Sequence record: PZ338877.1
Origin: a phage
Length of the DNA stretch: 64,000 nt
Direction: 5' to 3' (one strand)
Positions 116-58,920 of this stretch are shown here, one piece after another; position 1 is the first letter of the stretch; each line of letters opens with the position of its first letter. The notes beneath the pieces are model-generated. The model worked only from the letters and a program-made list of their open reading frames with translations, searched no databases and was not told where the DNA came from. Both the position numbers and the translations under genes were made by a program.

Positions 116-159
116 AAAAAAAAAAAAGGTGATGTAAGCCTATCAAGACCCACATCACC
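116..159 (-). terminator. rho-independent terminator downstream of nrdD
   Basis: 8-bp stem GGTGATGT/ACATCACC (128-135/152-159) followed on minus strand by a 12-nt U-tract (116-127). Confidence 0.65.
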
Positions 160-169
160 TTGTCAAGTT

Positions 170-14831: not shown

Positions 14832-15254
14832 TTATTTCTCTCTCAGTTGGTTAAGTTTCTTTCTAGAACATTTTAAGTTTTCTGATGAAGAAAAGTCAAG
14901 TGTCTTTTCAGAACGTGGATAGTAATGTCTATCCCAAGAAGTTTCAACATCGTTAATCAGTGACGCTAGATTACACAGGTCTGTACCACTTTGCAACTTC
15001 TTTTTAAGAGAATCAAGTAAAGCAACTGTGTCTTTAGCTTTACGCCTCGCTGTAGCAACATCTTTCATATGCTCAAATACAGAGCATTTTAAGTCATCTT
15101 CATAGTTTTCAGACAACTCTATTTCATGTTGTATATCAACCATTCTCCTGTGATGGTGAGCATATTCCCGTTGAGCAGCAATGTCAAGTTCTTCCAACTT
15201 CTGCAAAGCTCTAACAAAGTCAGCTATGTCTGGGTGAACAAACATTTTCTGCAT
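14832..15254 (-). CDS. hypothetical protein
   Basis: 140 aa ORF, last gene of minus-strand block before divergent intergenic region. Confidence 0.5.
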   Translation of the reverse strand: MQKMFVHPDIADFVRALQKLEELDIAAQREYAHHHRRMVDIQHEIELSENYEDDLKCSVFEHMKDVATARRKAKDTVALLDSLKKKLQSGTDLCNLASLINDVETSWDRHYYPRSEKTLDFSSSENLKCSRKKLNQLREK

Positions 15255-15428
15255 GTAAGCCTCTTTTAAGTAACTATTAAGTTTTAATCTTTTATCTTAA
15301 CGTATTCTATACGTTATACTTTAAAGCTTTTTAAAAGCTATTAAATAATCTTTTAAGAGTTTTAAAGTATCTGTATAGTTAAACTGTTAAGTAACCTTTT
15401 AAGTAAAAACCCACTTCGCAAAGATTAA

Positions 15429-15466
15429 CACCTTGTCAAGTACATTGTCAACTTGCTTTTTATAAT
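15429..15466 (+). promoter_or_regulatory. conserved motif CACCTTGTCAAGTACATTGTCAAC plus TATAAT, upstream of DNA polymerase
   Basis: 24-nt motif repeated almost identically at 57419-57442; TATAAT at 15461-15466; spacing not canonical sigma70. Confidence 0.4.
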
Positions 15467-15511
15467 TTTTTGCAGTAATGTATGTGGTTAATGATTTTAG
15501 AGGGAGTAAAA

Positions 15512-18211: not shown

Positions 18212-18272
18212 TTAGTATTGACAAGGTGCTCATGGAAGAGTACCTTATACAATATCTTATATAGGAGGGCTT

Positions 18273-20865: not shown

Positions 20866-20904
20866 CATCACTTAAGGGTCTTCTAAGAGGGTTTTTAAGT
20901 GATG
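20866..20904. repeat. 39-bp palindromic element, copy 1
   Basis: CATCACTTAAGGGTCTTCTAAGAGGGTTTTTAAGTGATG; near-identical copy at 22396-22434. Confidence 0.8.
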
Positions 20905-21035
20905 TACGGCAATGCAAGGCTAGGTCCGGTTATGTCAGGTCGGGTCCGGTTAGGTTCTGTGCGGGTAGTTAGTCTCAGCTACATTAAAATGAGACTTACC
21001 TTTTTAAAAGGTCTTTAAACAGGGTCTTTTAATAA

Positions 21036-21118
21036 GGTTTGGTCTGGTAGGGTAGGTTGGGGTAAGGTTAGGTAAGGTGAGGTAAGGTCGGGTTTAGTAT
21101 GGTATGGGTGGATGGTAG
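21036..21118. repeat. G/T-rich tandem short repeats (GGTNNG units)
   Basis: GGTCTGGTAGGGTAGGTTGGGGTAAGGTTAGGTAAGGTGAGGTAAGGTCGGGTTTAGTATGGTATGGGTGGATGGTAG. Confidence 0.8.
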
Positions 21119-21197
21119 TAGCCACGTTAAAAATCTACCAAGTTTCTAAAGAGTCTTCTGTTGAGGGTTCTTTACAAACAACTTAACAATCAACTAA

Positions 21198-21803
<606 letters not shown>

Positions 21804-22257: not shown

Positions 22258-22280
22258 AGCCTCTTCGGAGGCTCCTTTTT
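22258..22280 (+). terminator. rho-independent terminator
   Basis: stem AGCCTC/GAGGCT with TTCG loop then TTTTT. Confidence 0.65.
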
Positions 22281-22310
22281 AAAAGGTCTTTTAAGAGGGT
22301 CTTTTAATGA

Positions 22311-22365
22311 GGTAAGGTGCGGTCTGGTAAGGCATGGTATGGTTGGGTGAGGTGAGGTATGGGTA
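22311..22365. repeat. G/T-rich tandem short repeats
   Basis: GGTAAGGTGCGGTCTGGTAAGGCATGGTATGGTTGGGTGAGGTGAGGTATGGGTAG. Confidence 0.8.
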
Positions 22366-22395
22366 GTTAATCGGAGCTACATTAAAATTCGATTA

Positions 22396-22434
22396 CATCA
22401 CTTAAGAGTCTTCTAAGAGGGTTTTTAAGTGATG
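22396..22434. repeat. 39-bp palindromic element, copy 2
   Basis: CATCACTTAAGAGTCTTCTAAGAGGGTTTTTAAGTGATG; 10-bp arms CATCACTTAA/TTAAGTGATG. Confidence 0.8.
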
Positions 22435-22437
22435 CTC

Positions 22438-22512
22438 GGTCGGGTTTGGTCGGGTTTGGTAGGGTGTGGTTCGGTATGGTGTGGTTTGGTGTGGTATGGT
22501 ATGGTATGGAAG
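22438..22512. repeat. G/T-rich pentamer-like tandem repeats (GGTNT)n
   Basis: GGGTTTGGTCGGGTTTGGTAGGGTGTGGTTCGGTATGGTGTGGTTTGGTGTGGTATGGTATGGTATGG. Confidence 0.8.
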
Positions 22513-22545
22513 GATGGCAGTAGCCTTATAAAAAATCTGCCAAAT

Positions 22546-23018: not shown

Positions 23019-23231
23019 ATGGCTCTTAAAAAGTTACATCCCAGAAGCGGTTATGGTAAGATAATTGATGATACAGACGGCTTTACAGTCTTTACAGTTA
23101 TCTGTCAAGATGATTCACAGATTGAAAAGGCTCTTGATGATTATCTTAATGATGAACGTGAAAAGGTTAGGGCTACAAACATAGATTCATTGATTGACAC
23201 TTCACGCAAACGGAAGAAGAAAGATGAATGA
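23019..23231 (+). CDS. hypothetical protein
   Basis: 70 aa, basic C-terminus. Confidence 0.4.
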   Translation: MALKKLHPRSGYGKIIDDTDGFTVFTVICQDDSQIEKALDDYLNDEREKVRATNIDSLIDTSRKRKKKDE

Positions 23232-23523
23232 GGTTTTTGACCCTTATGCTCCACAAGATGATTGGGAGGCTGACAGAGAGGCTGAAATGGAAAGCTATAT
23301 TTGTCCAATGGATGTAGACGAAATGAGAGATTTCGTTGCACATCGTTTTAAGAGAGAGATTAAATCCAGAGGTCTTTCTCAAGAGCAAGTTGCTAAAATT
23401 TGTGGTATCTCTCAGGCTCGTGTATCCAACATAGTCAATCTCACTGGTAATGTCTCTCTTGAGTTTATGTTGGAAGTATGCGAAAAATTTGGTGTTAATT
23501 TTAATTTAAGGCTGGCAGATTAA
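23224..23523 (+). CDS. helix-turn-helix transcriptional regulator (XRE/Cro-like)
   Basis: HTH-like segment LSQEQVAKICGISQARVSNIVN; start at MNEVF overlapping previous stop. Confidence 0.55.
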   Translation: MNEVFDPYAPQDDWEADREAEMESYICPMDVDEMRDFVAHRFKREIKSRGLSQEQVAKICGISQARVSNIVNLTGNVSLEFMLEVCEKFGVNFNLRLAD

Positions 23524-55423: not shown

Positions 55424-56839
55424 TTACCAGATGTAACGGTCAATCATTACTGCTTTGAGCATTACGCTGATTGGGTCAAACTTCTCACCGCCAAGAAGAG
55501 CTTTTAAAGTGGCTGGAGAGAACCCTGATACCATTGCTACACCATTATCCTTAACAGATACTTCGCAAGTACCATTACGGTTTGCTAAGTACCAGAATAC
55601 TAGTTGCGGCATTTCGTATCCAGCTTTTTTGTACTTACTCTGAATTGCTTCAAAGTTTGTACGACCATTTGCACCATCAACCTGATTAAACTCCATATCA
55701 GAGAAGATAATGAGCTTACTTGGCATATCTTTCTGAGTCAAGTTGTTTCTCTTACCTACCTCAAGGATACGGTCAAAAGCTGCTTGTAAGTTAGTTGAGC
55801 CATATTCAACATGACGCATTACCTGACGGTGACGGTTTCGTAAATCACCACTCAGTTCAATGAAATGAGGGTTTGTTGAATAGACCATTAACTCATCTTT
55901 AAAGCAACCTGTATTGCGTTCTGCTACATACAAGGCAAGTGATACACCAATATCAAGGGCAGTAATTGAGCCAAGATTCACCCAAGACATTGAGCTTGAA
56001 ACATCAGTCATACATAAGATGTTTTCACCTTCTGCCATCCAGTTTGGTAGTGCTTTCCACTGCTCATTAGCGACATCAGCATTACCATACTTGATAGATT
56101 TAATCACATCGTATGGGTAAACAGCACCAGCGTTAATCTTGGCCTCACCTTTTGAGAGGGACTCGATGTAAGCTTTGTAACGTTCCCCATCTTTACGGCT
56201 AAAGAGCTTTTGGTAACGTGCAGCAGCGAGTGAAGGAATCTTGCTGTAGTCAATCTTACCAAACTCATTAGCAGAGATTTTTTGCTCAACCGTATCAGAT
56301 AGTGCAGATAACAGTGTGCGATACTCCTTCTCACTTAAGTTTGCAAACTTACAGAAACGTTTTACAAACTGTTTATGGCGTGGTTTTACTCGTGGCAACC
56401 ACTTAGCTGCTAAACCTGCTGTTGCAGGGTCTAGTAATGCTGATTCTAAATGTTTGAAGGCATCTGTCTCAAAACGAGTACCTACGAAGATTTTGAAGTC
56501 ATCAAAACGACCAAGTTCTGCAATCTTATCCATAATGCGAAGAACCTGTGTAGGTTCTAAAACTTTATCTTCAATTGCTTGAAGTAAAACAGTTCGGAAA
56601 GCTTTACGCTCACCCATACCTTCTCGTACATCTCGCATATGCAGTAAAATACGAACTGCAACATCAACATCCTCACGCAAAGCTTTGTAGAACAGGTCTG
56701 GTAAGATTTCTACATTGCTACGGCTTGAGCCAGCGGCTTTGTAAAAATCTACCAGAGCAGACATTGATGAAGTATGGTTTACAGCACCATTTTCAGTTCG
56801 ACCTGCATGAAGGTGCGCATGTTTAAATAACTCGCTCAT
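55424..56839 (-). CDS. vWA-domain protein with N-terminal helical domain (Ro60/TROVE-like or DUF2828-like, putative)
   Basis: 471 aa; C-terminal von Willebrand A fold with MIDAS-like DVSSSMS and later LIIFSDMEFN; N-terminal about 270-aa helical region; first gene upstream of tRNA array. Confidence 0.55.
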   Translation of the reverse strand: MSELFKHAHLHAGRTENGAVNHTSSMSALVDFYKAAGSSRSNVEILPDLFYKALREDVDVAVRILLHMRDVREGMGERKAFRTVLLQAIEDKVLEPTQVLRIMDKIAELGRFDDFKIFVGTRFETDAFKHLESALLDPATAGLAAKWLPRVKPRHKQFVKRFCKFANLSEKEYRTLLSALSDTVEQKISANEFGKIDYSKIPSLAAARYQKLFSRKDGERYKAYIESLSKGEAKINAGAVYPYDVIKSIKYGNADVANEQWKALPNWMAEGENILCMTDVSSSMSWVNLGSITALDIGVSLALYVAERNTGCFKDELMVYSTNPHFIELSGDLRNRHRQVMRHVEYGSTNLQAAFDRILEVGKRNNLTQKDMPSKLIIFSDMEFNQVDGANGRTNFEAIQSKYKKAGYEMPQLVFWYLANRNGTCEVSVKDNGVAMVSGFSPATLKALLGGEKFDPISVMLKAVMIDRYIW

Positions 56840-56919: not shown

Positions 56920-57291
56920 TTATTTTTTGAGAGTCGCTACAGCAGAGAACGTTGGTTTGTTATCTGTCTGTGGCTGACCACCATTATCAGTGGTCTTCTT
57001 AGTGTCTGCTGCAAGTGCTTTCATCTCACCTGCTGAGTGAGTAAAGATAGTTTTACCGACCTCAATCATGCTCTTGATGGTTACGTCATCTGTGTTTAAC
57101 CCGAACTCTGCAAGTTTGGCAGCGTCCCTTGTAACAATCGCCTCAAACAACTTTGCAGCAAACTCAGCAGAATTATCAATGGTCAGTTGAGCTTTTACGA
57201 GTGAGCTTTTGTTACGTGAACCTTTTGGTCTTCCAGATGGGTTACCAGACTGGCCTTTTTTAAACTGGCCTTTGTTTGTTCTGTTTTTCAT
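56920..57291 (-). CDS. hypothetical protein with basic N-terminal GNPSGRPKG (AT-hook-like) motif
   Basis: 123 aa; N-terminus KGQFKKGQSGNPSGRPKGSRNK. Confidence 0.45.
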   Translation of the reverse strand: MKNRTNKGQFKKGQSGNPSGRPKGSRNKSSLVKAQLTIDNSAEFAAKLFEAIVTRDAAKLAEFGLNTDDVTIKSMIEVGKTIFTHSAGEMKALAADTKKTTDNGGQPQTDNKPTFSAVATLKK

Positions 57292-57418
57292 TGGTATGCC
57301 TCTTATAAGACCTCTTAAAAGGCTTTTAAGATAAAAGATAGATATCCAGAAAGATATCTGTTTAAATAGCCTTTTTAGAGGAACCTTTTAAGTTATCTTC
57401 TAAGTATTTATAAGCCTA

Positions 57419-57495
57419 CACCTTGTCAAGTACTTTGTCAACAACTTTTTTAGCTTGCAATAGTTCTTGACTTGTTGTATGGATTACTGTACCAT
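57419..57495 (+). promoter_or_regulatory. conserved motif CACCTTGTCAAGTACTTTGTCAAC followed by sigma70-like promoter
   Basis: motif near-identical to 15429-15452; downstream TTGACT (57467-57472) - 17 nt - TACCAT (57490-57495). Confidence 0.45.
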
Positions 57496-57540
57496 CTTAC
57501 TTAAAGCTGTAGGTCTGCCTTGTTCTACAAAGGAGACTTA

Positions 57541-58548: not shown

Positions 58549-58920
58549 ATGAAGGCTAAGAGTGCAAAAGACTTTTATTGCTTCCTACAATCCTATATCA
58601 ATTCCGTGGAGAAAGGTGATAGATATAATCTTAAAGATGTTATTGCATCACCTTTAACATGGAGACTTAGCAAATGGCCTGAAGAAGATATCACACCCAC
58701 TAGTAAACAACCTACCTACATCCCAGATATTAATCTCCCAGATTCAGATAAGTTATTGTACCCAATGTTCCACATTGTTGGGCTTGGTACATTTCTTATG
58801 GATATCCAGTATGTAATCGGTAAAGGTTATAAGGTTGAAGGTATCGTTGTTGGTGATGTGTCTCCACAACATAAAGGCTATTTTAGATTAAACGCACGTT
58901 TAGAGGCTAAAAAGAAATGA
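58549..58920 (+). CDS. hypothetical protein, paralog of N-terminal domain of downstream Ig-like protein
   Basis: 123 aa; shares motif (F)(L/F)MD(I/L)QYVI..GK with 58917-59801 product. Confidence 0.5.
   Translation: MKAKSAKDFYCFLQSYINSVEKGDRYNLKDVIASPLTWRLSKWPEEDITPTSKQPTYIPDINLPDSDKLLYPMFHIVGLGTFLMDIQYVIGKGYKVEGIVVGDVSPQHKGYFRLNARLEAKKK

What the first reader, a model, noticed from the sequence alone, without database searches (positions are those of the whole stretch)
15256..15466. Duplicated intergenic module ending in CACCTTGTCAAGTAC(W)TTGTCAAC
The intergenic regions upstream of the DNA polymerase (15256-15466) and upstream of the 57541 gene block (57296-57495) both begin with GCCTCTT(T/A)TAAG, are AT-rich with repeated CTTTTAAG/TTAAAAG boxes and an internal palindrome, and end with a nearly identical 24-nt motif. 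Both sit at minus-to-plus transcription switch points. The spacing to TATAAT does not fit a simple sigma70 promoter, so this may be a phage-specific promoter or regulator-binding site. The same motif on the opposite strand reads TTGACAAGGTG (a -35-like box), and a partial copy overlaps the nrdD terminator at 156-167.
Basis: seen in the sequence. Interest (0 to 1): 0.55.

Follow-up and report, generated by a model that had tools for sequence, protein, structure and literature searches.

The report
Duplicated phage promoter-and-leader module
The repeated 24-base motif is, read on the opposite strand, most likely the core of ordinary host-type (sigma-70) promoters that start the two long leftward operons of a Felix O1-like phage; it is real and strongly conserved but mostly ordinary, apart from an unexplained second copy of the -35 box.

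Summary
The window is a Felixounavirus (Felix O1-like E. coli/Salmonella myovirus), and the two regions are its two divergent-transcription gaps. Most of the interpretation needs turning round.

On the minus strand the motif reads aaaaAG..GTTGACAA-N5-CTTGACAAGGTG, followed by TAATCT (18-nt spacer, TGn) or TAGGCT (17 nt). That is a sigma-70-type promoter pointing left: A-tract, perfect -35, TAnnnT -10.

- "GCCTCTT(T/A)TAAG" is the reverse complement of the Shine-Dalgarno sequences of the leftward genes.
- The AT-rich CTTTTAAG boxes and palindromes lie in the 115-160-nt leaders of the leftward mRNAs. These leaders are predicted to fold as long hairpins.
- Both TTGACA hexamers and the TAnnnT are kept across three genera, while the linker between the hexamers varies.
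- The plus-strand TATAAT is not conserved.
- More distant Ounavirinae have one TTGACA-16/17/18-TAnnnT (TTTACA in phiEa21-4 R2) at the same places.
- Whichard et al. (2010) already predicted the R2 copy as "P41" but missed the R1 copy.

Two things remain unexplained: the conserved second TTGACA inside the spacer (three such promoters per genome), and leaders that are several-fold less variable than the flanking genes. No transcription-start data were found, so promoter use is inferred.

The parts
15446..15451 (-). R1 leftward promoter, distal -35 hexamer TTGACA, preceded on the minus strand by the A-tract AAAAAGCAAG (15452-15461)
   Evidence: invariant in 18 distinct sequences from three genera
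15434..15439 (-). R1 proximal (spacer-embedded) second TTGACA, within CTTGACAAGGTG; role unexplained
   Evidence: invariant, while the 3 nt in the linker between the boxes vary
15422..15430 (-). R1 leftward extended -10, TGtTAATCT (hexamer 15427->15422), 18 nt from the distal -35; TAGTCT in Mooglevirus
15255..15415 (-). R1 leftward leader (about 160 nt, start inferred). AU-rich CUUAAAAG boxes form a long predicted hairpin whose 5' end pairs with the SD region. SD AAGAGGC is the reverse complement of 15259-15265; the ATG is at 15254->15252.
   Evidence: z -2.2 to -2.7; 3 pairs with compensatory changes; diversity 0.005 against 0.017-0.105 in flanking CDS
15453..15481 (+). R1 candidate rightward promoter for the DNA polymerase: TTGCTT (15453-58), 17 nt, TAATGT (15476-81). 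It lies back-to-back with the leftward -35.
   Evidence: TTGCTT-17-TA(A/G)(T/G)GT kept in Mooglevirus and Suspvirus, whereas TATAAT 15461-66 is not
57436..57441 (-). R2 leftward promoter, distal -35 hexamer TTGACA, preceded by AAAAAAGTTG. This is 'P41' of Whichard et al. 2010.
   Evidence: PMC3185647
57424..57429 (-). R2 proximal (spacer-embedded) second TTGACA
   Evidence: invariant in 13 distinct sequences while linker, AGGTG and -10 interior vary
57413..57418 (-). R2 leftward -10 hexamer TAGGCT, 17 nt from the distal -35 (TAGCCT, TAGTGT or TAAGTT in other lineages)
   Evidence: rank 17 of 128,000 positions with a crude hexamer matrix
57292..57406 (-). R2 leftward leader (about 115 nt, start inferred): long AU-rich hairpin built from the CUUAAAAG/CUUUUAAG boxes. 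SD AAGAGGC is the reverse complement of 57298-57304; the ATG is at 57291->57289.
   Evidence: z -3.2; one C-G/U-A compensatory pair; diversity 0.0014 against 0.046-0.059 in flanking CDS
57435..57495 (+). R2 candidate rightward promoters for ORF40 (ATG 57541). First: TTGTCA (57435-40, the reverse of the distal box), 18 nt, TGcAATAGT (57456-64). Second: TTGACT (57467-72), 17 nt, TACCAT (57490-95).
   Evidence: TGnAATAnT kept in divergent lineages
137..166 (-). Solo copy: TTGACAAGGTG (166->156), 18 nt, TAGGCT (142->137), embedded in the nrdD terminator hairpin (126-161). Candidate promoter for the small membrane-protein gene downstream.
   Evidence: conserved in Mijalis
18218..18246 (+). Solo copy: TTGACAAGGTG, 17 nt, TACCTT, just after the DNA polymerase stop, with a hairpin in the spacer

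Best explanation
The 24-nt motif is the -35 box plus spacer of a host-type (E. coli/Salmonella sigma-70) promoter on the minus strand. Read leftward, each copy has an A-rich upstream tract, a perfect TTGACA, a 17- or 18-nt spacer and a TAnnnT -10 hexamer (TGtTAATCT in R1, TAGGCT in R2). These two promoters start the two long leftward transcription units. One is the replication and nucleotide-metabolism unit, beginning with the homologue of Felix O1 ORF97. The other is the tRNA, packaging and structural unit, beginning with the ORF41 homologue. The rest of the 'module' is the transcribed leader of those mRNAs: an AU-rich long hairpin of 115-160 nt built from self-complementary CUUWWAAG words. 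Each gap also holds separate rightward promoter candidates set back-to-back with, or overlapping, the leftward -35. Shown here: the sequence anatomy, its conservation, and its resemblance to the phage's other promoter-like sites. Inferred: that RNA polymerase actually starts there, with predicted starts near 15415 and 57406 on the minus strand. A second TTGACA 12 nt downstream, inside the spacer, is under selection, but the geometry does not explain its role. My best guess is that it is a site for a trans-acting regulator, or that it modulates polymerase binding.
For: Identity: the window matches about 260 Felix O1-like phage genomes at 90-97% and is reverse-complemented relative to Felix O1. 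Anatomy: TTGACA-18-TAATCT with TGn (R1) and TTGACA-17-TAGGCT (R2) on the minus strand. Family resemblance: other intergenic, co-oriented TTGACA-16/18-TAnnnT sites in the window carry the same upstream 'aaaaAGttg' (56907, 55405, 55314, 53824, 20808, 22561). Conservation: both TTGACA hexamers and the T, A and final T of the -10 are kept in Felixounavirus, Mooglevirus, Suspvirus and two further lineages. Meanwhile the linker, the 'AGGTG' and the interior of the -10 vary. Deeper conservation: the leftward strand of the same gaps carries a single -35 hexamer, 16-18 nt and TAnnnT, followed by an AT-rich boxed leader. This holds in Arno18, SE5 and Panisse for R1 and in phiEa21-4 (TTTACA) and Wc4-1 for R2. 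Literature: Whichard et al. 2010 predicted P41 = TTGACA(N15)TATAGG at 21515-21541, which is the distal box of R2. They found no phage RNA polymerase or known polymerase modifier. Their RT-PCR puts ORFs 41, 42, 96 and 97 in the same class, maximal at 25 min. Recurrence: TTGACAAGG occurs 5 times in Felix O1 against 0.66 expected, always intergenic and co-oriented with the downstream gene. A third double-box promoter sits upstream of ORF22 and is kept in Mijalis with a different TAnnnT. The SD reading follows directly from the sequence: CTTAAAAGAGGCTTACATG and CTTATAAGAGGCATACCAATG.
Against: No transcription-start data for any Ounavirinae phage were found, so use of these promoters is inferred. 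The -10 hexamers match TATAAT at only 3 of 6 positions. The consensus scanner did not list either site. With a crude hexamer matrix R1 ranks only 137th in the window. A plain promoter does not explain why the spacer-embedded TTGACA is invariant. It also does not explain why the leaders are several-fold less variable than the neighbouring genes.
Confidence: 0.8

Rival explanations
1. Besides carrying the -35 box, the doubled box TTGACAA-N5-(C)TTGACAA is an operator. A phage or host DNA-binding protein would recognise the direct repeat and co-regulate the three double-box promoters (P97, P41, P22), switching them off or on over time. This is compatible with the best explanation rather than exclusive of it.
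For: The proximal hexamer is invariant across five lineages although it has no usable -10 at 16-18 nt (it ranks 4220th and 301st as a -35), while its surroundings vary. There are three such promoters per genome, conserved between genera. The phage encodes an XRE-type helix-turn-helix protein at 23194-23523. Whichard et al. state that temporal control is unexplained.
Against: No binding data exist. XRE-type proteins normally bind inverted repeats, not direct ones. RT-PCR classes differ between ORF22 (5 min) and ORF41/97 (25 min). Distant Ounavirinae manage with a single box.
Confidence: 0.3
2. The motif acts on the + strand as a phage-specific promoter or activator site for the rightward genes (the DNA polymerase and the ORF40 block), together with the downstream TATAAT.
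For: TTGTCA matches the -35 consensus at 5 of 6 positions. In R2 the second TTGTCA lies 18 nt from a conserved TGcAATAGT, so the distal box may serve as a -35 in both directions there.
Against: TATAAT at 15461 is lost in the sister genera. The distances from the motif to the rightward -10 candidates differ between R1 and R2. No phage RNA polymerase or sigma is known in this group. The T4 MotA-box geometry does not fit.
Confidence: 0.07
3. The AT-rich, repeat-rich, palindrome-bearing gaps are replication origins, with iterons and an unwinding region. The adjacent promoter could prime replication through a transcript, as at the T4 oriF/oriG or T7 origins.
For: The non-coding DNA is extremely conserved and contains repeated boxes and palindromes. 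R1 lies between the polymerase and primase-helicase genes. Cumulative GC skew has local minima at 15452 and near 58773.
Against: The skew simply follows gene orientation. R2 is not near replication genes. Compensatory changes in the hairpin arms and pairing of the leader 5' end with the SD fit an RNA role better. There is no 10-11-bp phasing of A-tracts. No origin has been mapped in this group.
Confidence: 0.07
4. The conserved leaders are RNA control elements. They could be nut- or put-like antitermination signals, letting polymerase read through the many internal terminators. Alternatively they could be RNase III or translation-control hairpins that mask the first ribosome-binding site.
For: The leaders fold better than shuffles (z -2.2 to -3.7 in Felix R1, R2 and P22, Moogle R2 and Pecto R1, R2). 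There are 1 (R2) and 3 (R1) compensatory pairs. The leader 5' end pairs with the SD region in several lineages. Seven annotated terminators lie inside the R1-leftward unit of Mijalis. How terminators are passed is an open question. The arrangements CUCUUAAAAG + 11 nt + hairpin (R1) and CUCUAAAAAG + 12 nt + hairpin (R2) loosely recall boxA-boxB (comparison from my own knowledge of lambda nut).
Against: The boxA consensus (CGCUCUUA / GCUCUUUAACAA) is matched only partly. Rfam gives no hit. Moogle R1 and the Kolesnikvirus leaders are not significantly structured. No N-like protein was identified. The sequences are too similar for strong covariation statistics.
Confidence: 0.2

Closest known systems
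Predicted promoter P41 of phage Felix O1 (Whichard et al. 2010, PMC3185647)
   Same: It is the same element as the R2 copy: the distal TTGACA at Felix O1 21515, in the ORF40/41 gap, pointing towards ORF41.
   Different: The authors paired it with TATAGG at 15 nt rather than TAGGCT at 17 nt. They did not note the second TTGACA. They reported no homologous sequence in the ORF96/97 gap, where the R1 copy is in fact present at Felix O1 63532.
Strong sigma-70 early promoters of coliphages, with an A-rich upstream element, a consensus -35 and often a TGn extended -10 (for example T7 A1, T5 N25, lambda PL/PR; from my own knowledge)
   Same: Host polymerase, a perfect TTGACA, a 17-18-nt spacer, TAnnnT, an upstream A-tract, and a location at the heads of long operons in divergent gaps.
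   Different: The -10 hexamers are weak (3 of 6), and a second perfect TTGACA sits inside the spacer. No start sites have been mapped.
Lambda PR/PL-type promoters with operators overlapping the -35 and spacer
   Same: A conserved sequence inside the promoter spacer that polymerase contacts do not explain would fit an operator.
   Different: The boxes here are direct repeats identical to the -35 hexamer, not inverted-repeat operators. No repressor is known.
Lambda nut (boxA-boxB) and HK022 put leader elements
   Same: Paired, similar elements sit just downstream of the promoters of two long operons that contain internal terminators. Each has a short linear box followed by a hairpin.
   Different: The boxA match is only partial, the hairpins are AU-rich and much longer, and there is no Rfam hit or N homologue.

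Membership tests
Bacterial sigma-70 (housekeeping) promoter | -35 hexamer close to TTGACA | tested here: met
   Perfect TTGACA on the minus strand at 15451->15446 and 57441->57436.
Bacterial sigma-70 (housekeeping) promoter | -10 hexamer with T-12, A-11 and T-7, placed 16-18 nt from the -35 | tested here: met
   TAATCT at 18 nt with TGn (R1) and TAGGCT at 17 nt (R2). Only 3 of 6 positions match TATAAT, but the key positions are kept in all lineages.
Bacterial sigma-70 (housekeeping) promoter | Located upstream of, and co-oriented with, a gene or operon | tested here: met
   The sites lie about 160 nt and 115 nt upstream of the first genes of the two leftward units.
Bacterial sigma-70 (housekeeping) promoter | The functional positions are conserved while neighbouring positions drift | tested here: met
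   and 30/64/65 for the distant genera.
Bacterial sigma-70 (housekeeping) promoter | Transcription starts 6-8 nt downstream of the -10 with sigma-70 holoenzyme | not testable with these tools
   No TSS or RNA-seq data for Ounavirinae were found in the paper library.
T4-type middle promoter (MotA/AsiA) | MotA box (a/t)(a/t)(a/t)TGCTT(t/c)A centred at -30, 11-13 nt from a TAnnnT | tested here: not met
   TGCTTTT at 15454-60 abuts TATAAT (0 nt) and lies 15 nt from TAATGT. Whichard et al. found no polymerase-modifying proteins.
T4-type late promoter (TATAAATA) | Conserved TATAAATA at -10 | tested here: not met
   TATAAATA occurs in the R2 leftward strand of Felixounavirus but is AATAAATA or AATAAAAC in the sister lineages.
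Lambda-type nut site | boxA consensus (CGCUCUUA / GCUCUUUAACAA) followed by a boxB hairpin in the leader | tested here: inconclusive
   CUCUUAAAAG + 11 nt + hairpin in R1 and CUCUAAAAAG + 12 nt + hairpin in R2. The match is partial and lies in low-complexity sequence. No Rfam hit.
Replication origin with iterons | Mapped initiation of DNA synthesis and an initiator protein binding the repeats | not testable with these tools
   Only indirect features are available.
Genome terminus or packaging site | Location at the physical ends or the direct terminal repeat | tested here: not met
   Felixounaviruses are reported to package with direct terminal repeats (581 bp in Pr103Blw). In the records of Pr103Blw and D4, R2 lies about 7.5-9 kb and R1 about 48-53 kb from the record start. 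This rests on the inference that those records start at the physical end.

The most novel reading that the evidence does not exclude
The doubled -35 box plus the ultra-conserved structured leader form one regulatory cassette, present three times per genome (P97, P41, P22). A still unidentified factor would bind the TTGACAA direct repeat to time these promoters. The leader RNA would then either modify the elongating polymerase, allowing read-through of the many internal terminators, or gate translation of the first gene. That would answer the question Whichard et al. left open: how a phage with no polymerase or sigma of its own orders its transcription.
Probability: 0.15. Interest if true: 0.55.

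Novelty: new member of a known kind. Interest (0 to 1): 0.3.

Why it matters
Felix O1-like phages are widely used for Salmonella typing and biocontrol. Yet their transcription programme is unmapped, and the genome paper says its temporal control is unknown. Two results give concrete targets for 5'-end mapping and promoter engineering. First, both divergent gaps carry the same leftward host-type promoter. Second, three promoters per genome share a doubled -35 box and a related leader. The result also corrects the published statement that the ORF96/97 gap holds no promoter-like sequence. In itself, a sigma-70 promoter with its leader is an ordinary feature.

Tried and rejected
- **Plus-strand promoter using TATAAT:** rejected, because the spacing is wrong and TATAAT is not conserved.
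- **T4 MotA-box and T4 late-promoter readings:** the geometry or the conservation fails.
- **Rfam scans of both gaps:** nothing credible; the only hit was a plant microRNA model at E = 0.25.
- **Consensus promoter scanner:** it does not list the sites because it demands 4 of 6 matches in the -10. A crude hexamer matrix ranks them 17th (R2) and 137th (R1), so hexamers alone are not decisive.
- **Intrinsic DNA curvature:** no 10-11-bp phasing of A/T tracts.
- **GC skew as an origin signal:** it follows gene orientation, so it is uninformative.
- **The phage helix-turn-helix protein as a sigma region 4 mimic:** it is an ordinary XRE/HipB/SinR-type domain.
- **Genome terminus:** one isolate contig (L165) starts 118 nt upstream of the ORF41 homologue's ATG, close to the predicted R2 start. 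However, in DTR-typed relatives R1 and R2 lie kilobases from the record start.
- **IMG/VR scan for TTGACAAnnnACTTGACAA:** among 95 non-Felix hits, 15 have TAnnnT at exactly the offset expected for a 17-nt spacer. My rough estimate of chance occurrence among millions of promoters is of the same order, so I draw no conclusion.
- **Literature searches for mapped starts or RNA-seq in Felix O1-like phages:** nothing found.

Full report
**What the window is.** The 5 kb around the first region and the 1.8 kb around the second match about 260 phage genomes at 90-97% identity. Nearly all are Felixounavirus or its relatives, infecting Escherichia, Salmonella, Shigella and Citrobacter. Against the annotated Felix O1 genome the window is reverse-complemented.
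- R1 (15255-15511) is the gap between ORF96 (DNA polymerase, + strand here, ATG 15512) and ORF97 (minus strand, 14832-15254).
- R2 (57292-57540) is the gap between ORF40 (+, ATG 57541) and ORF41 (minus, 56920-57291; a DUF5681 protein).
- These are the only two divergent points of the genome's four transcription units, as described by Whichard et al. 2010.

**The observation.**
- The 24-mer occurs exactly twice, with one variable base and none expected by chance.
- CTTWWAAG words are about 20-fold enriched in both gaps, even against the local dinucleotide composition.
- The partial copy at 156-167 overlaps a strong terminator.
- One further copy of the half-motif was missed: TTGACAAGGTG on the + strand at 18218.

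**Turning the motif round.** On the minus strand the two copies read:
- R1: ataaaaagcaaG-TTGACA-ATGTACTTGACAAGGTGT-TAATCT
- R2: ctaaaaaagttG-TTGACA-AAGTACTTGACAAGGTG-TAGGCT

Each has a perfect -35 hexamer, an 18- or 17-nt spacer and a TAnnnT hexamer. R1 also has a TGn extended -10, and both have an upstream A-tract. The same 'aaaaAGttgTTGACA' head is seen at the other intergenic, co-oriented TTGACA-16/18-TAnnnT sites of the window (56907, 55405, 55314, 53824, 20808, 22561). The phage therefore has a recognisable promoter type, and the motif belongs to it.

The 'CTTTTT' that follows the motif on the + strand in both copies is this A-tract. 'GCCTCTT(T/A)TAAG' is the reverse complement of CTTA(A/T)AAGAGGC, the ribosome-binding site 4-6 nt before the ATG of ORF97 and ORF41.

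**Comparative evidence.** I collected the two gaps from IMG/VR contigs and from GenBank phages of other genera.
- *Conservation within the motif.* In 18 distinct R1 sequences and 13 distinct R2 sequences, both TTGACA hexamers are invariant. These sequences span Felixounavirus, Mooglevirus, Suspvirus and two further lineages.
- *Variation around it.* The 3-6 nt between the hexamers vary freely. 'AGGTG' varies (ACGTG, AGATG, AGCTG). The -10 changes only at its interior positions: TAGGCT, TAGCCT, TAGTGT or TAAGTT, and TAATCT or TAGTCT. This is the pattern expected of a sigma-70 promoter.
- *The plus-strand TATAAT.* The hexamer at 15461-66 becomes TGAAGA or TGAAAC in the sister genera, which removes the main prop of a + strand reading.
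- *Distant genera.* In Kolesnikvirus and the Pectobacterium phages the leftward strand of the same gaps carries a single box and an AT-rich boxed leader. The promoters are TTGACA-17-TAGGCT (Arno18), TTGACA-17-TACATT (SE5, Panisse), TTTACA-17-TGcTACACT (phiEa21-4 R2) and TTGACA-18-TGaTACCCT (Wc4-1 R2).

**Relation to the literature.** Whichard et al. predicted 'P41 (TTGACA(N15)TATAGG 21515-21541)', which is the distal box of R2. They also wrote that no other homologous sequences were found in the 40-41 or 96-97 gaps. The R1 copy, at Felix O1 63532, is such a sequence. They found no phage RNA polymerase and no known modifier of host polymerase. They left open how temporal control and passage of the 'numerous' terminators work. 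In their RT-PCR table, ORFs 41, 42, 96 and 97 all peak at 25 min, which is consistent with shared control. I found no mapped transcription starts for any member of the subfamily.

**The second box.** The proximal TTGACA lies 12 nt downstream of the distal one, that is, inside the spacer. It has no acceptable -10 at 16-18 nt (AAGTGG in R1), yet it is invariant.
- *Solo copies.* The same words recur as TTGACAAGG(T/G)G at three other intergenic places in Felix O1. All are co-oriented with the next gene and 17-18 nt from a TAnnnT: after rIIA, after nrdD (window 166->137) and after the polymerase (window 18218-18246).
- *Statistics.* That makes 5 occurrences against 0.66 expected.
- *Setting.* In those three sites the -35 abuts a hairpin and the -10 lies inside or just after it. 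After nrdD that hairpin is a terminator. Transcripts that begin there would lack the 5' arm of the hairpin.
- *A third doubled promoter.* TTGACAATACCCCTTGACA-ttgg-TAACTT lies upstream of ORF22, outside the window. It is kept in Mijalis with TAGATT. Its leader starts like that of R1 (GGGGGTTTATCTAAAAGG against GTGGGTTTTTACTTAAAAGG).

So the doubled box is a conserved design used three times per genome. Its mechanism is not settled by sequence. A regulator site is my leading guess, and it is compatible with the promoter reading.

**The AT-rich part.** From the predicted starts to the ATGs the leftward mRNAs have leaders of about 160 nt (R1) and 115 nt (R2).
- *Folding.* They fold into long imperfect hairpins whose arms are the CUUAAAAG/CUUUUAAG words, with z-scores of -2.2 to -3.3. 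The third module and the Pectobacterium-phage leaders behave alike (z -2.4 to -3.7). Mooglevirus R1 and the Kolesnikvirus leaders do not.
- *Covariation.* Compensatory changes exist but are few: one C-G/U-A pair in R2, and three pairs in R1. The R1 pairs include the helix CUUAAC/GUUAAG, which becomes CUUUAU/AUAAAG or CUUUAC/GUAAAG.
- *SD pairing.* In several lineages the 5' end of the leader pairs with the Shine-Dalgarno region.
- *Low variability.* Within Felixounavirus the leaders have nucleotide diversity of 0.005 and 0.0014, against 0.017-0.105 in the flanking genes.

They are therefore functional, but whether in RNA stability, processing, translation control, antitermination or DNA-level binding cannot be decided here. 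Rfam has nothing.

**Rightward promoters.** Conserved candidates lie to the right of the motif.
- R1: TTGCTT-17-TAATGT (15453-81).
- R2: TTGTCA-18-TGcAATAGT (57435-64) and TTGACT-17-TACCAT (57467-95).
- In R2 the rightward -35 is the reverse reading of the distal box (TTGWCAA is nearly palindromic). The two divergent promoters may therefore compete for the same 7 bp. This is inference only.

**Verdict.** The element is best read as a pair of paralogous host-type promoter-plus-leader modules on the opposite strand. One copy was already predicted in 2010. It is a new member of a known kind, with two modestly interesting loose ends: the doubled -35 box and the ultra-conserved structured leaders.

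Noticed in passing
window 20866-21135 and 22274-22530 (+ strand): Four copies of an intergenic module in the rightward polymerase/ligase unit. Each begins with an A/T box part (CCTTTTTAAAAGGTCTTTTAAGAGGGTCTTTTAAT, or the hairpin CATCACTTAAGGGTCTTCTAAGAGGGTTTTTAAGTGATG). Then come 50-80 nt of 5-nt-periodic GGT repeats (GGTAT/GGTGT/GGTTT...). The module ends with a hairpin GGGTAGTTA..GCTAC followed by ATTAAAAT. It uses the same CTTTTAAG(AGG) word as the R1/R2 leaders. No Rfam hit. Function unknown.
   Followed up: partly
window 126-166 (minus strand), 18218-18246 (plus strand); Felix O1 L129:2298: Candidate promoters overlapping hairpins. TTGACAAGG(T/G)G abuts the 5' arm of a hairpin, with a TAnnnT hexamer in the loop, in the 3' arm or just after it. 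The hairpin after nrdD is a terminator. Transcripts starting there would escape it. The arrangement is conserved in Mooglevirus.
   Followed up: partly
Felix O1 L129:11269-11460; Mijalis record position 78065 (minus strand): A third double -35 promoter (TTGACAATACCCCTTGACA-N4-TAACTT or TAGATT) lies outside the window, upstream of ORF22. Its leader opens like that of R1 and is well structured (z -3.5).
   Followed up: yes
window 23194-23523 (+ strand): A 109-aa XRE-type helix-turn-helix protein, the homologue of Felix O1 ORF85 'transcriptional regulator'. It is the only obvious DNA-binding regulator seen near the finding and a candidate for binding the palindromes or boxes.
   Followed up: partly
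IMG/VR loci L018, L020, L028, L031, L051, L084, L086, L102, L104: An unrelated family of viral contigs carries tandem 12-bp arrays (TTGACAAAGCAC)n, resembling iterons or centromere-like repeats. Separately, about ten low-GC contig families have TTGACAAnnnACTTGACAA-N4-TAnnnT promoters of the same doubled design, which may be chance.
   Followed up: no
window 55424-56839 and 56920-57291 (minus strand): The first two genes of the R2-leftward unit, ahead of the tRNA cluster, are a DUF5681 protein and a 471-aa DUF2828/DUF7788 protein. PHROGs and RefSeq call the latter an 'RNA-binding protein'.
   Followed up: no
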